Below are positions 3,107 to 41,430 of a stretch of 64,000 bases of DNA, piece after piece; the first letter of the stretch is position 1; each line of letters starts with the position of its first letter. The DNA comes from an archaeon (GTDB lineage: Archaea; Undinarchaeota; Undinarchaeia; Undinarchaeales; JBDRKL01), in contig JBDRKL010000007.1 of assembly GCA_043814055.1 (NCBI GenBank), positions 32,001 through 96,000 on the forward strand. The letters are read 5' to 3'. Under the pieces are notes generated by a model. It did not search any database. It had not been told where the DNA came from and worked only from the letters and a program-made list of their open reading frames with translations. The translations under genes were made by a program, and so were the position numbers.

Positions 3107-3158
3107 ATGGAACTAACTGAAGATTATGTCCTTGGGCTCTTGAAAAAAAACGAGACAG
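3107..3158 (+). repeat. direct repeat of the first 52 nt of the DUF357 gene (partner at 4215-4266)
   Basis: atggaactaactgaagattatgtccttgggctcttgaaaaaaa(a/c)cgagacag, 51 of 52 nt identical. Confidence 0.95.
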
Positions 3159-3813: not shown

Positions 3814-4228
3814 TAATTATATAGAAGAAATAGGAGTTGACAAAGAACTCACAAAGCGGGCTTTGAAAATAGCCGAGCGGGACTTGGAAGCTGCAAAGGA
3901 GAATTGGGAGGGGGGGCAGTACGACTGGACACTAGCAATAGCATATAATTCCATGCTACAGGCAGGACGTTCTCTTATGTTTTCAAAGGGCTACAGACCA
4001 GCAGGAGCATACAGACACGTTTCTGTTTCTTTGTTTGTGGACACACTTGAGGAACTTCATGAGTTCAGCACTCATTTTGATCGGCTGAGGAAAAAACGCC
4101 ATAAAGCAGTTTATGAACAGGCAGAAATTGTGTCAGAAGAAGAAGCACAGCAAGCGATTAACTGGACAACAAAATTTATTTCAAAAATAAAGGAGATTAT
4201 TGGTGGTGATTTAAATGGAACTAACTGA
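3788..4228 (+). CDS. HEPN domain protein (toxin partner)
   Basis: AYNSMLQAGR and RKKRHKAVY (R-x4-Y type HEPN) motifs; overlaps the MNT gene. Confidence 0.85.
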   Translation: MNLEKLLSDNYIEEIGVDKELTKRALKIAERDLEAAKENWEGGQYDWTLAIAYNSMLQAGRSLMFSKGYRPAGAYRHVSVSLFVDTLEELHEFSTHFDRLRKKRHKAVYEQAEIVSEEEAQQAINWTTKFISKIKEIIGGDLNGTN

Positions 4229-4475
4229 AGATTATGTCCTTGGGCTCTTGAAAAAAACCGAGACAGCCCTGGTGAGCGTTGAGATTGTTGAAGAAGGCGG
4301 GCAGAGGGTCTTGGATATGGCCACGCGCTACCTTGAGGATGCAATTCACTTCTTTGAAAAGGGCGACCTGGAGAAGGCGATGGCAGCGGAGGAATACTCA
4401 CATGGGCTTTTGGATGGCGGAGTTGGGACTGGAGCACTAAGAGTAATTCAAAACGAGGACTTGTTTGTATTCTAA
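4215..4475 (+). CDS. DUF357 family protein
   Basis: 86 aa, MATRYLEDAIHFFEKGD...AEEYSHGLLDGG motif; family commonly linked to dph5 in archaea. Confidence 0.85.
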   Translation: MELTEDYVLGLLKKTETALVSVEIVEEGGQRVLDMATRYLEDAIHFFEKGDLEKAMAAEEYSHGLLDGGVGTGALRVIQNEDLFVF

Positions 4476-4545
4476 AGCCGAGCTGATGCGAGGCAGTTTT
4501 TCGTCAACGTTTTTGGACAAATTGCAAAGAAAAAGGTTGCTGCCA

Positions 4546-4632
4546 GAGGAATACTCACATGGGTTGATTGATGGAGCTGTAGGAACTGGAGCTTTGAAAG
4601 TAATTCAGAACGAAGATTTGTTTGTATTCTAA
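4546..4632 (+). pseudogene. orphan diverged copy of the DUF357 3' end
   Basis: EEYSHGLIDGAVGTGALKVIQNEDLFVF* versus live EEYSHGLLDGGVGTGALRVIQNEDLFVF* (4389-4475); mostly third-position changes. Confidence 0.9.
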
Positions 4633-31932: not shown

Positions 31933-33144
31933 TTAGTCCATTTGTATTTCGCCAAATGTTTTTACAATAACATCAAGATCGTCTTGTGAAAGATACTGGT
32001 GGCAGCCAATGTAGAAACCATTTGAACCTGTATAGTCTGCGTTTGGTAGTTTTCCTTCATATGTAGCCTTAAGATAAGAATATGCTGCCTGCTGTGTTGG
32101 GATACAACCGAAGAGTGGTCTTGTCTCAACTCCACGCGACTCCAGCTCTGCTCTGAGTTTTTTCCTAGGTATTTTGTCAGGATTCTTTATTATAATTGGA
32201 TATGCAAGATAGCTTACGTTCTCGTTGTATGGCGGAAGCTGTAGAACGTCAGAGTATTTTTTAAGATTTTCATTTAGATACTTAACGTTATTTAACCTGC
32301 TTTTAGTTATGTCATCTGCTTTTTTTAGTTGGGTACCGGCAAGTGCTGCCTGAAACTCCATGGTCTTGAAGTTGTAGCCAATCAAATCGTGTGTGAATCT
32401 TGGGTCAAAATCATCGTCACCTTTGTAAGCTGCCATTTTTGGGCATTTCCCCTCGTTTCTTGTGCAGACTGGGCAGTCACACATGCGCCCATTTGCCTTG
32501 ATGCGTTTGAGCAGTTTGTATATCTCAATGTCATCTGTTGTTATTGCACCCATCTCTCCCGCCTGTATGTTGTGGGCTATATAAAATGAGAAGTCCGCCA
32601 ACAGAGAGAGCGATCCTGTTTTTTTGCCTTTGTACGTTGTCCCATGAGCCTGCGCAGAGTCCTCAAATGTAATCAAGCCATATTCTTTTGCGATTTTGTT
32701 TATTTCATCCATATCGCAGGGATAACCCATTAGGTGTACTGGCAGAATTGCTGCGTATTCAGATGAGTCGTCGACTCCCTCAAGATGAGCTTTTATGTTC
32801 TCAGGCGTGATTCCAAACGTTGCCGGATCTGTGTCAACATATACAGGTTCAAAGCCTGTTGTGACTATTGCATTACTCGTAGCTATGTAGGTTAGAGGCG
32901 TGGTTATTATTTTTGACTTCTCTTTTATAGGGGTGATTGGGTGGTGTTTAAGAGCTGTAAGCCCCCCCATTATTGCACTTGTCCCAGAGCTTAGAGCCAC
33001 TGCATATTTTGTCCCTATATACTCTGCAAACTCGCTTTCAAAATTTCTTACACACTCTGCCTCAGATATTCGACCTGATTCCAGCACGCGAAGTACTGCT
33101 TCTTTCTCGTCTTTTCCAATAACAAAATCCCCTACATGTATCAT
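31933..33144 (-). CDS. DegT/DnrJ family PLP enzyme, RfbH/E1-like 3-dehydrase type
   Basis: SSGTSA, PVHLMG, EDSAQAHG, FSFYIAHN (His at the usual Lys), GRMCDCPVC..C. Confidence 0.85.
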   Translation of the reverse strand: MIHVGDFVIGKDEKEAVLRVLESGRISEAECVRNFESEFAEYIGTKYAVALSSGTSAIMGGLTALKHHPITPIKEKSKIITTPLTYIATSNAIVTTGFEPVYVDTDPATFGITPENIKAHLEGVDDSSEYAAILPVHLMGYPCDMDEINKIAKEYGLITFEDSAQAHGTTYKGKKTGSLSLLADFSFYIAHNIQAGEMGAITTDDIEIYKLLKRIKANGRMCDCPVCTRNEGKCPKMAAYKGDDDFDPRFTHDLIGYNFKTMEFQAALAGTQLKKADDITKSRLNNVKYLNENLKKYSDVLQLPPYNENVSYLAYPIIIKNPDKIPRKKLRAELESRGVETRPLFGCIPTQQAAYSYLKATYEGKLPNADYTGSNGFYIGCHQYLSQDDLDVIVKTFGEIQMD

Positions 33145-33288
33145 TTCAAAGTTTCACCTCTTTCATCAGCTTTGGAATCAACACAAAACTCAGCAATTTC
33201 TAGGGATTTTGTGTCTGATTTCAAAGTTTCACCTCTTTCACGGGCTTTGAAATGAGTACATTCATAGATTTCATGGTCTGTACCTCAT
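33141..33288 (-). repeat. tandem pair of two-hairpin junction cassettes carrying three chained mini-ORFs
   Basis: atttcaaagtttcacctctttca at 33143 and 33218 and again at 41353; 9-bp stems atttcaaag/ctttg(a/g)aat. Confidence 0.85.
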
Positions 33289-34238
33289 TTTTTGTTTCGC
33301 CAATACTCCAAGATGTCTTTGAGCGTTGTGTCAAAGTCTATCTCAGGTTTCCAACCGGTCTGCTTGCAGAATTTTGTGTTGTCCCCAAGCAAAATTTGGA
33401 CATCACTTGGCCTCATTCGCTCTGGGTCTTCCTTTACTTCTATTTTTGCGTCTGACATTCCCAATAGCTTGTCCAGAACTTCCTGGATTGGGTGAGTTGT
33501 TCCACTGCAGATATTGTAGACATCTCCGGGTTCGCACTTCTCAACCGCGAGTAGGTATGCGCGAACTGTATCTCGCACGTCAGTGAAGTCGCGCTTTGCA
33601 GTTAGATTTCCGACATTAATTATTGGATCTTTTTTATTGTTTTCAATGTCCACTATCTGCTTTGCAAAGTTTGAACAGACGAAAACACTGCCGCGTCTTG
33701 GACCGGTGTGATTGAACGCGCGCGTCCTAATTACTTTTACCCCGTATGACTGGAAATACTGGTAACCGAGGTAGTCCTGCGCGACCTTGCTCACTGCGTA
33801 CGGGCTCAGCGGCCTTAGCGGGTTCGTCTCCTTGATCGGAACTTCGTCTGGCATGACCATGCCATATTCCTCAGAAGAGCATGCTATCTGAATGGTTGGG
33901 TCTGCGTCTGATTCGCGGACTGCTTCAAAAAGATTTAGCTCCCCTATTAAATTGGTGTGCATTGTATCTGCAGGGGAACGCCAGGACGCGGGGACAAAAG
34001 ACTGTGCAGCCAAGTGGAAAATGTAATCAGGCTCGGATTCTTTTACAGCCGCTTTCATACTGTATGCGTCGTGCAGATCTGCCTCTATAAGTTTGAGATT
34101 GTTTTGTATATGCTTTATGTTTTCTGAGTCGCTCCTCCAGCGGGTTAATCCATAGACCTCATGCCCTTTTTCAAGCAGGAGCTCTGCCAGGTGGCTTCCT
34201 GCGAAGCCGGTTATGCCGGTTATTAATGAGTTTGTCAT
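33285..34238 (-). CDS. GDP-mannose 4,6-dehydratase family SDR (Gmd/Rmd-like)
   Basis: LITGITGFAGSHL, HLAAQSFV, SSEEYG, SPYAVSK, FNHTGPR, RDFTDVRD; start set at ATG 34238 after a GGAGG RBS. Confidence 0.88.
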   Translation of the reverse strand: MTNSLITGITGFAGSHLAELLLEKGHEVYGLTRWRSDSENIKHIQNNLKLIEADLHDAYSMKAAVKESEPDYIFHLAAQSFVPASWRSPADTMHTNLIGELNLFEAVRESDADPTIQIACSSEEYGMVMPDEVPIKETNPLRPLSPYAVSKVAQDYLGYQYFQSYGVKVIRTRAFNHTGPRRGSVFVCSNFAKQIVDIENNKKDPIINVGNLTAKRDFTDVRDTVRAYLLAVEKCEPGDVYNICSGTTHPIQEVLDKLLGMSDAKIEVKEDPERMRPSDVQILLGDNTKFCKQTGWKPEIDFDTTLKDILEYWRNKK

Positions 34239-34315
34239 TTCAAAGCCTCCTTGAATTTTACCAGCTTTGAAATACACACAAAGCTGGACACATTTGTTAA
34301 ACTTTGTTGTGTCAT
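34235..34315 (-). other. two-hairpin junction cassette / 26-codon leader mini-ORF
   Basis: GGAGGT RBS, MTQQSLTNVSSFVCISKLVKFKEALK*, ATGA overlap with the 34238 start; aaatgaca at both ends. Confidence 0.75.
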
Positions 34316-34348
34316 TTTTACCTCCACCTATTCCGTAGGATTATAATT

Positions 34349-35173
34349 TTATTTCCACTCCTTTATCGCCTTTTCGTAGCTTTCATTTGTGCCAAGGTCG
34401 TACCACGGACCTGAGTAGACATATCCAGAAAGTTTTCCCTGCTTTGCGAGCTTTGGGAAGACATCCTTTTCCAGCATTGCCTTTTTCTTGTTTGGCAGGT
34501 AATCAACAATGCTTGGCTCAAAAATGTAAAGACCTGCATTTATTAGGTTGCTAATGCGGTCTTTTGGCTTTTCAATGAATCCGGTTATTGCTGATCCGTT
34601 TAGAGTTGCAACACCAAATCGAGATGGATCCTTGACTGTTGTGAGTGCAATGGTTCCGGTAGAGTTTGAATTTAGATGAGTCTGGAGCATGTCAAGTACA
34701 TCTATTTTAGAGAGAAGGTCGCCGTTCATCATTACGAACGTGCTGTCAATCTTGCCTTTCGCGAGCCGAAGCGGTCCTGCGGTTCCAAGCGGCTCTTTTT
34801 CAACTAAATATTCTATGTTCACACCTAGGTTGTTGCCATCACCTAAGTGGGCTATTATTTTTTCAGACATATGACCGACCGACAATAGAATATCGTTTAT
34901 GCCAAAGCTTTTGAGGTTCAGGATAAGGTGTTCCACAAGAGCCCTTCCTTGAATAGGGATAAGCGATTTTGGAACTTCGTAGGTTAATGGGCGGAGTCTT
35001 GTCCCAATACCCCCTGCGAGCACAACTGCTTTGCTTATGCCATTGATTTGAAATGCTTTTCTGACAAGTTTCTCAACTGCAGCAGACCTGTTTTTGACAG
35101 TAATATTATCTATTGTTCCGTCTACTTTTTTAAGAATTCCCTTATCCAACGTCATGGTAATTCGCTTTTTCAT
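34349..35173 (-). CDS. ribbon-helix-helix + sugar-phosphate nucleotidyltransferase fusion
   Basis: N-terminal RITMTLD...NRSAAVEKLV (RHH); LAGGIGTRLRPLT..PK, EPLGTAG, NGD, INAGLY. Confidence 0.85.
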   Translation of the reverse strand: MKKRITMTLDKGILKKVDGTIDNITVKNRSAAVEKLVRKAFQINGISKAVVLAGGIGTRLRPLTYEVPKSLIPIQGRALVEHLILNLKSFGINDILLSVGHMSEKIIAHLGDGNNLGVNIEYLVEKEPLGTAGPLRLAKGKIDSTFVMMNGDLLSKIDVLDMLQTHLNSNSTGTIALTTVKDPSRFGVATLNGSAITGFIEKPKDRISNLINAGLYIFEPSIVDYLPNKKKAMLEKDVFPKLAKQGKLSGYVYSGPWYDLGTNESYEKAIKEWK

Positions 35174-41354: not shown

Positions 41355-41430
41355 TTCAAAGTTTCACCTCTTTCAGCAGCTTTGAAATAAACACGAAACT
41401 GCTTGACAGATTTATTGTTTTGTGCCTCAT
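41351..41430 (-). other. two-hairpin junction cassette / 24-codon bridge mini-ORF
   Basis: MRHKTINLSSSFVFISKLLKEVKL* (41430-41356) starts in the ATGA of the upstream stop and ends 1 nt before the gmhA ATG; homologous to 33141-33288. Confidence 0.8.

What the first reader, a model, noticed from the sequence alone, without database searches (positions are those of the whole stretch)
33141..33288. Three-step mini-ORF relay between the Gmd-like and RfbH-like genes
On the minus strand the gap is tiled exactly: upstream stop -ATGA- MRYRP* (33288-33271) -ATGA- MKSMNVLISKPVKEVKL* (33274-33221, GAGGT RBS) -TTGA- (TTG)KSDTKSLEIAEFCVDSKADERGETLK* (33224-33141, GAGGTGA RBS) -ATGA- DegT-family gene. Four consecutive 4-nt overlaps seem unlikely by chance. 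The gap is two tandem copies of the atttcaaag-loop-ctttgaaat unit, suggesting a second insertion at the same site or the remnant of a lost gene cassette.
Basis: seen in the sequence. Interest (0 to 1): 0.78.

Follow-up and report, generated by a model that had tools for sequence, protein, structure and literature searches.

The report
Tandem start-codon repeat creates ribosome relay
The three tiny overlapping reading frames between two sugar-pathway genes of a small archaeon are real, but they come from two back-to-back copies of a genome-wide hairpin repeat that sits on start codons and likely passes ribosomes on to the next gene, much like the MIRU repeats of mycobacteria, not from a purpose-built control switch.

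Summary
In detail: all four 4-nt overlaps and three mini-ORFs are where stated. The interpretation needs changing. The 144-nt gap is two units (69 and 75 nt) of a two-hairpin repeat with about 35 units at 33 sites in this genome, each ending on a gene start and carrying its own Shine-Dalgarno. Three of the four overlaps are built into the repeat. A shuffled gap gives such a relay in 0.8% of trials, but random tandems of real units do so in 487 of 572. Across the family, open frames do look selected (16 of 17 loops open, 10.1 expected), and the repeat's TTG is the only candidate start of purD. Unit 2 is 93% identical to the second unit of the only other tandem, whose orthologous junction in a relative is an empty 4-nt overlap. 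That supports a second insertion, not a lost cassette. Translation is untested and no mobilising enzyme was found. The scan reported this family before on other pieces of this genome, and MIRU-like tandems in other genomes.

The parts
33285..34238 (-). Upstream gene, NDP-sugar 4,6-dehydratase family (best NCBIfam match Gmd, below its cut-off); its TGA stop overlaps the first ATG of unit 1
33220..33288 (-). Repeat unit 1 (69 nt), variant subfamily; the only one of 22 ATG/GTG-starting units examined whose length is a multiple of three
33252..33288 (-). Hairpin A of unit 1 (begins at the ATG, closes on CAT)
33218..33253 (-). Hairpin B of unit 1, with the Shine-Dalgarno in its loop
33229..33235 (-). 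Shine-Dalgarno GAGGTGA of unit 1, 4 nt before the TTG of ORF3
   Evidence: complementary 16S 3' end present in the genome
33271..33288 (-). Mini-ORF1 MRYRP*
33221..33274 (-). Mini-ORF2 (17 codons), in the frame that 11 of 22 units use, ending at the TGA of the 3' arm
33141..33224 (-). Mini-ORF3 (27 codons, TTG start): the two-codon frame at the end of unit 1 lengthened by the 25 codons of unit 2
33145..33219 (-). Repeat unit 2 (75 nt, ATCA-starting type), 93% identical to the second unit of the tandem at G000:C10:34988-35062
33177..33219 (-). Hairpin A of unit 2
33143..33178 (-). Hairpin B of unit 2; its 3' arm holds the AT of the DegT start codon
33154..33160 (-). Shine-Dalgarno GAGGTGA of unit 2, 9 nt before the DegT ATG
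31933..33144 (-). Downstream gene, DegT/DnrJ/EryC1/StrS family (best NCBIfam match RfbH, below its cut-off)
34239..34315 (-). Single copy of the same repeat in front of the Gmd-like gene (26-codon mini-ORF ending in ATGA)
41355..41430 (-). Single copy of the same repeat in front of the GmhA-like gene (24-codon mini-ORF ending 1 nt before the ATG)

Best explanation
The gap is two back-to-back units of a dispersed two-hairpin repeat that ends on gene start codons, likely inserted one after the other into an ATGA stop/start junction, and the mini-ORFs are the repeat's built-in frames, which likely carry ribosomes through the hairpins to the DegT start. Shown: the anatomy, the family, the frames, and empty junctions in relatives at other sites. 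Inferred order: unit 1 entered the Gmd/DegT junction and left a new start-like end; a younger 75-nt unit then entered that end and, being 25 stop-free codons long, lengthened the existing two-codon TTG frame into ORF3. Inferred function: ribosomes that terminate on Gmd, or load at the unit-1 Shine-Dalgarno, reinitiate at the overlapping starts, open hairpin B and stop on the DegT ATG. The peptides are probably disposable. How the repeat moves is not shown. My best guess is a folded single-stranded intermediate of the non-coding strand that enters by short homology to the start region, with the enzyme supplied in trans.
For: Family: 39 model matches, i.e. 35 units at 33 sites once 3 antisense duplicates and a split composite are merged; no match in the reversed genome with the profile HMM. 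A profile built without any window or C10-tandem unit still finds both units (E 6e-15 for unit 2; 8e-9 for the hairpin-B half of unit 1). Both stems covary (10 of 18 pairs with changes on both sides, 0 of 500 shuffles). Relay built in: 487 of 572 random tandems relay, and unit 2 behind each of the 22 ATG/GTG-starting units relays 22 of 22 times; only 30 of 420 substitutions break it. Frames look selected family-wide: 21 of 22 units open through hairpin A; loop-only control 16 of 17 against 10.1 expected, P 0.0004; 1 of 22 lengths divisible by three (P 0.0016); units whose frame needs the gene's own ATGA as stop sit before ATGA genes in 8 of 9 cases against 4 of 10 (P 0.04). TTG usable: in purD the arm's TTG is the only start codon between the upstream in-frame stop and +54 nt, and GARS_N matches positions 1-100 of 100 from it. 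Insertion: orthologous junctions of topo VI B-A, transketolase, EF-2 and the C10 tandem show no element in relatives, several as direct overlaps or 2-11 nt gaps. The DegT start codon is predicted paired (unpaired probability 0.01). Coupling fades beyond about 30 nt (PMC12548453, passage) and the gap here is 140 nt.
Against: No translation or transcript data. No orthologue of this Gmd-DegT junction was found, so its empty state is inferred. DegT has a strong Shine-Dalgarno of its own (-11.7 kcal/mol) and may not need the relay; four reinitiations in a row should lose ribosomes (inference). Single units fold only modestly on the mRNA strand (z -1.3 and -1.6). Copies share ancestry, so the P values overstate. 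27 of 35 units were curated by hand; composite and decayed ones were left out, and at least 4 units (ATCA type) have no start codon of their own. No mobilising enzyme was found.
Confidence: 0.6

Rival explanations
1. The repeat and the double insertion are right, but the relay is not used. DegT starts de novo at the Shine-Dalgarno in unit 2's loop, and the overlaps are an unselected by-product of the motif.
For: 85% of random tandems relay without any selection on the pair; strong own Shine-Dalgarno; weak folding of single units on the mRNA strand; some units lack a start codon. One archaeal adjacent gene pair was uncoupled in vitro (PMC6728339, passage).
Against: Variable loops avoid stops specifically in the mini-ORF frame (1 of 17, against 14 and 4 of 17 in the other frames); length classes and ATGA use are biased.
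Confidence: 0.2
2. Unit 2 arrived not by a fresh insertion but by recombination or template switching between hairpin B of unit 1 and another tandem such as the one on C10, copying an A-plus-half-B patch and duplicating the local 3' end.
For: At each tandem the two B hairpins share their 3' ends (34 nt at C10, the longest of 351 pairs; 21 nt here), while the middle is shared between the two loci; this unit type occurs only as a second unit, 2 of 2.
Against: The 21-nt end is also shared with the single copy at 41355-41430, so it may just be a local sequence type; two single copies also start with ATCA and show the matching change in the partner strand.
Confidence: 0.12
3. The region is a locus-specific regulatory leader (attenuator-like or peptide-sensing relay) that tunes DegT against Gmd.
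For: Alternative long-range folds are possible in the tandem; the start of ORF2 is ATG here, where three related units have TTG or TTA at that place.
Against: The same repeat precedes unrelated genes such as EF-2, topo VI, hydrogenase subunits and ribosomal proteins (names from reading the translations); peptides vary freely in sequence and frame; no terminator- or promoter-like site by a bacterial-type scan.
Confidence: 0.05
4. The gap is the remnant of a lost gene cassette between two recombination sites, as in an integron array.
For: Paired hairpins, better folding on the non-coding strand, and composite sites with further nested hairpins.
Against: No sequence is left over between the units; copies are dispersed before core genes, not arrayed; no tyrosine recombinase in the assembly (82% complete); no unit enclosing a gene was seen.
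Confidence: 0.03

Closest known systems
MIRUs, mycobacterial interspersed repetitive units (Supply et al. 1997, not held; known from passages of PMC12548453, PMC3184786, PMC4213456 and PMC3914561)
   Same: 40-100 bp, dozens of copies, insertion at start codons in operons, internal ORF coupled to the neighbouring gene, short flanking direct repeats, empty sites in relatives, tandem arrays in one intergenic gap (senX3-regX3).
   Different: Archaeal host; AT-rich stems and no terminal inverted repeats; own Shine-Dalgarno in a hairpin loop; mini-ORFs end by 4-nt overlap or 1 nt before the ATG and differ in frame between copies; flanking duplication varies (3-7 nt shared from the ATG in 19 units); the tandem here is of two unlike units (69%). 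No sequence comparison with MIRUs was run.
Neisseria REP2 and Borrelia IR-A/IR-B repeats (PMC3184786, passages)
   Same: Two internal stem-loops, no terminal inverted repeats, own ribosome-binding site and ATG directly upstream of genes.
   Different: Those are 120-180 bp and carry a promoter; this one is 59-77 nt, sits inside operons, keeps the old start at its 5' end and bridges it with a mini-ORF.
Translational coupling by termination-reinitiation (PMC6728339, abstract and passages; PMC12548453, passages)
   Same: NTGA overlaps with a Shine-Dalgarno upstream; short ORFs that only deliver ribosomes.
   Different: Here the coupling cassette is a repeat and is chained three times; coupling was shown in Haloferax and E. 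coli, not in this lineage.
REP/RAYT and IS200/IS605-derived miniature elements (recalled, not from a call)
   Same: Small hairpin repeats with strand-biased imperfect stems that nest into mosaics.
   Different: No Y1 HUH transposase in the assembly; variable target duplication and start-codon targeting are not typical of them.

Membership tests
MIRU | 40-100 bp unit, tens of dispersed copies per genome | tested here: met
   59-77 nt, 35 units at 33 sites
MIRU | Sits at start codons / coupled junctions; empty sites in relatives | tested here: met
   for other sites; not testable for this junction
MIRU | Internal ORF whose ends overlap the neighbouring genes | tested here: met
   19 of 22 ATG/GTG-starting units end at -4 overlap (8) or 1 nt before the unit's 3' end (11)
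MIRU | Tetranucleotide direct repeats at both ends | tested here: inconclusive
   3-7 nt shared from the ATG, more than by permutation (p 0.00013); length not fixed
MIRU | Imperfect terminal inverted repeats, GC-rich internal stems | tested here: not met
   ends are direct, stems AT-rich
MIRU | Sequence homology to mycobacterial MIRUs, mycobacterial host | not tested
   no MIRU sequence was compared; the host is an archaeon (archaeal LSU rRNA). Verdict: works like a MIRU, is not filed as one
MITE (TIR-bound, DDE-mobilised) | Terminal inverted repeats and fixed-length target duplication | tested here: not met
REP/RAYT or IS200/IS605-derived element | Cognate Y1 HUH transposase in the genome | tested here: inconclusive
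   none found, but the assembly is 82% complete
REP2-type repeat | Two stem-loops plus ribosome-binding site and ATG before genes | tested here: met
REP2-type repeat | Carries a promoter; 120-180 bp | tested here: not met
   length 59-77 nt; the promoter scan is bacterial-type only and found none
Integron cassette array | Arrayed attC-like sites separating cassette genes, with a tyrosine integrase | tested here: not met
   dispersed before core genes; no PF00589 match in an 82% complete assembly
Known structured RNA (Rfam) | Match to a covariance model | tested here: not met
   one chance-level hit, E 4.1, in 33000-34500

The most novel reading that the evidence does not exclude
An undescribed archaeal class of protein-less mobile element whose sequence is a frame funnel: whatever frame a ribosome enters in, NTGA overlaps in the Shine-Dalgarno loop and the hairpin arm hand it down to the host start. 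The element can therefore land on the start of essential genes, replace their start codon (purD) and stack into its own copies without cost. It would move as a folded non-coding strand by short homology to start regions, a mechanism unlike known MITEs.
Probability: 0.25. Interest if true: 0.75.

Novelty: new variant of a known kind. Interest (0 to 1): 0.4.

Why it matters
For this locus the lesson is modest: an eye-catching relay is what this repeat yields almost automatically. The family matters more. It shows a MIRU-like strategy (land on start codons, repay the host with a Shine-Dalgarno and a ribosome-delivering frame) in an archaeon. I found no such archaeal element in 7 literature searches, in a library that lacks most subscription papers. 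Tandems like this one give a compact test of how many reinitiations can be chained, and the unlike tandem units and variable end duplications bear on how such enzyme-less repeats spread, which the passages I read leave open for MIRUs and REP2.

Tried and rejected
Sequencing runs: none was listed for 32000-35000, so no reads were laid. Pattern search in 41 genomes used a gap one base too long and shows nothing. GTDB pattern scan: 11 single hits in bacterial contigs; viral scan: 2 hits; on reading, none showed hairpin A or the Shine-Dalgarno loop, so taken as chance. Model search in 16 other genomes of the phylum: 5 weak hits in 4 genomes (E 0.0009-0.01) without the architecture; none at E 0.0005 in 140 other genomes (only the 31 best candidates per genome were scored). 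Orthologous Gmd-DegT junction: not found. DegT matched 8 of 400 other genomes at E 1e-110; in 3 of the 8 a Gmd-family gene lies directly upstream (gaps of about 19, 25 and 132 nt, automatic start calls) but is only 31-35% identical. One search covered a one-genome phylum and found nothing. GmhA orthologues in three relatives keep the same upstream gene with an ordinary spacer and no visible element, not a direct overlap. Mobiliser searches in the own genome: Y1_Tnp, GIY-YIG, DUF559, tyrosine recombinase and reverse transcriptase none; two weak zinc-ribbon hits below the TnpB cut-off; no unit enclosing an ORF. Mismatch counts alone did not settle strand bias: 23 A-C against 9 G-U on the mRNA strand, but 15 of the 23 are one inherited position. 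Supply 1997 and Magdalena 1998 are not held. No supplements were consulted.

Full report
Observation. On the minus strand a Gmd-like dehydratase gene (34238-33285) is followed by MRYRP* (33288-33271), a 17-codon ORF (33274-33221), a 27-codon TTG-started ORF (33224-33141) and a DegT-family gene (33144-31933), with overlaps ATGA, ATGA, TTGA, ATGA. Both gene names are best matches below NCBIfam's cut-offs. The DegT start is right: 73 of 120 homologues listed place the first conserved motif two residues further from their start, and 6 of 120 (this protein included) at the same distance.

What the gap is. The window holds four copies of the hairpin. The own genome (980 kb, 82% complete, archaeal rRNA) holds many more. 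A covariance model from 26 units gives 39 matches, which reduce to 35 units at 33 sites; a profile HMM gave no match in the reversed genome. The full unit is 59-77 nt: a start-like 5' end, hairpin A, hairpin B with a Shine-Dalgarno in an 18-nt loop, and a 3' arm ending on the start of a gene. Both stems covary: 92% of cells paired, 10 of 18 pairs with changes on both sides, none of 500 shuffles as high, slid controls at most 46% paired (copies are kin, so this is not a probability). The genome's 16S 3' end is complementary to GAGGTGA. The finding's gap is unit 1 (69 nt) plus unit 2 (75 nt) with nothing left over. A profile built from 20 units, none from the window or the C10 tandem, finds unit 2 whole and the hairpin-B half of unit 1; unit 1's first hairpin resembles that of three other variant units.

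Is the relay more than chance? Against a shuffled gap, yes: 0.82% of 100,000. Against the repeat, no. Keeping the skeleton and shuffling the variable parts gives 36%; shuffling only unit 1's first hairpin region gives 56%; joining any of 22 ATG/GTG-starting units to any other of 27 curated units, in front of the DegT start, gives a complete 4-nt-overlap relay in 487 of 572 pairs. The reason is visible in the motif. The unit begins ATGA, its loop and Shine-Dalgarno hold ATGA/GTGA, its 3' arm holds TTGA, and it ends on ATG, so each stop offers a restart one frame on. Only the second overlap is particular to this copy, and there three related units have TTG or TTA instead of ATG. Thirty of 420 substitutions and 36 of 140 single deletions break the relay. 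These tests count TTG and GTG as starts; without TTG there is no strict relay.

Is the frame used? Untested, but family statistics lean yes. Of 22 units with an ATG or GTG start, 21 are open through hairpin A; 11 stop 1 nt before the unit's 3' end, 8 by a 4-nt overlap, 3 elsewhere. Shuffling only the variable loop, 16 of 17 are open against 10.1 expected (P 0.0004; five short-loop units left out). One length in 22 is a multiple of three (P 0.0016), and that one is unit 1 of this finding. Units that need the gene's ATGA as their stop sit before ATGA genes in 8 of 9 cases, the others in 4 of 10 (P 0.04). Shared ancestry inflates all of these, and 8 composite or decayed units were not curated. 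The TTG is credible: at purD it is the only start between the upstream stop and +54 nt and the GARS_N domain begins on it; an HTH gene likely starts the same way; GGTGA-to-ATG spacers of 3-9 nt are common in the genome (crude ORF calls). Against: DegT has its own strong site, single units fold weakly on the mRNA strand, and at least four units have no start codon.

History. Relatives show no element at orthologous junctions: topo VI B-A (gaps of 2, 11, 2 nt and an 11-nt overlap in 4 of 5 genomes; one split hit left out), transketolase (overlaps of 1, 4, 13 and gaps of 32, 91 nt in 5 of 5), EF-2 (gaps of 7, 4, 5 nt in 3 of 5; no upstream ORF called in 2). The only other tandem (C10) has an orthologue in 1 of 5 genomes, and there the genes overlap directly by GTGA. 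The two second units are the closest pair in the family (70 of 75 nt; next 87%, median 68%), while the first units differ. At C10 one 46-codon ORF runs through both units; here, removing unit 2 leaves a two-codon TTG frame ending on the DegT ATGA. So unit 2 is a young, frame-preserving addition to an existing unit. Whether it came by fresh insertion or by recombination between B hairpins cannot be told: the B hairpins within each tandem share 34 and 21 nt of their 3' ends. No orthologue of the Gmd-DegT junction itself was found. One metagenome contig (L015) has a copy before an L19e-like gene with a 24-codon mini-ORF and a 16-nt direct repeat at its ends; G000 lacks that operon, so the contig may be a relative or a missing piece of the same organism.

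How it moves. Not shown. The 5' end of a unit matches its own gene's start by 3-7 nt, more than by permutation (p 0.00013, 19 units), which suggests a variable duplication or target choice by homology. The non-coding strand folds better than the mRNA strand in 23 of 27 units, with RNA or DNA parameters; this fits a single-stranded intermediate, or selection for weaker folding in the mRNA. No candidate enzyme was found among six families.

Comparison. The lead to MIRUs came from earlier notes of this scan and was checked in papers. PMC12548453 (passages) says MIRUs appear mobile and insert at start codons with an ORF coupled at -4 nt. PMC3184786 (passages) gives 40-100 bp, 40-50 copies, tetranucleotide direct repeats and imperfect terminal inverted repeats, and describes REP2 with two stem-loops, a ribosome-binding site and ATG. 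PMC4213456 (passages) notes two or three MIRUs in tandem between senX3 and regX3; PMC3914561 (passages) describes them as tandem repeats at 41 loci. This element works like a MIRU but lacks terminal inverted repeats, is AT-rich and archaeal, and carries its own Shine-Dalgarno, so I do not file it as a member.

Verdict. A real feature, explained as a tandem of a MIRU-like start-codon repeat; the relay is built into the repeat and is likely, not shown, to be translated. New variant of a known kind; interest 0.4.

Noticed in passing
G000:C9:38014 (minus; L062) and G000:C10:112156 (plus; L097): Two genes, purD and a small HTH regulator, appear to use the TTG inside the repeat's 3' arm as their start codon; the HTH gene also has a GTG 30 nt further up.
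   Followed up: partly
G000:C10:26419-26471, C10:112076-112128, C11:6858-6910, C10:139290-139337, C12:9100-9153, C4:963-1017: A second hairpin family: inside the start-codon repeat at three sites, and alone just behind a tRNA-like sequence, about 100 nt beyond the 23S rRNA end, and at one more site.
   Followed up: partly
G000:C12:143445-143610 and C9:28241-28370: Composite leaders with several further hairpins nested between or inside the A and B hairpins.
   Followed up: no
G000:C8:32635-32716, C10:138482-138641, C9:11417-11453, C12:3833-3869, C12:12905-12928 and others: A T-run/A-run palindrome family, several copies next to tRNA genes, some repeated in tandem.
   Followed up: no
window 34239-34277: The mechanical ORF call starts the Gmd-like gene at a GTG at 34277; those 13 codons are repeat sequence and the likely start is the ATG at 34238.
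   Followed up: yes
L015:19-110: Repeat copy before an L19e-like gene with a 16-nt direct repeat covering the gene's first codons, longer than any such end duplication among the single G000 units curated.
   Followed up: partly
window 4389-4632 and 3107-3158 / 4215-4266: An 87-nt direct repeat with 157-nt spacing that ends in a stop codon, and a 52-nt near-identical repeat that begins with ATG.
   Followed up: no
L073, gap upstream of the DegT homologue: A 132-nt gap holds a short frame that looks like the start of a glycosyltransferase (motif recalled, not tested), perhaps a gene remnant in that genome.
   Followed up: no
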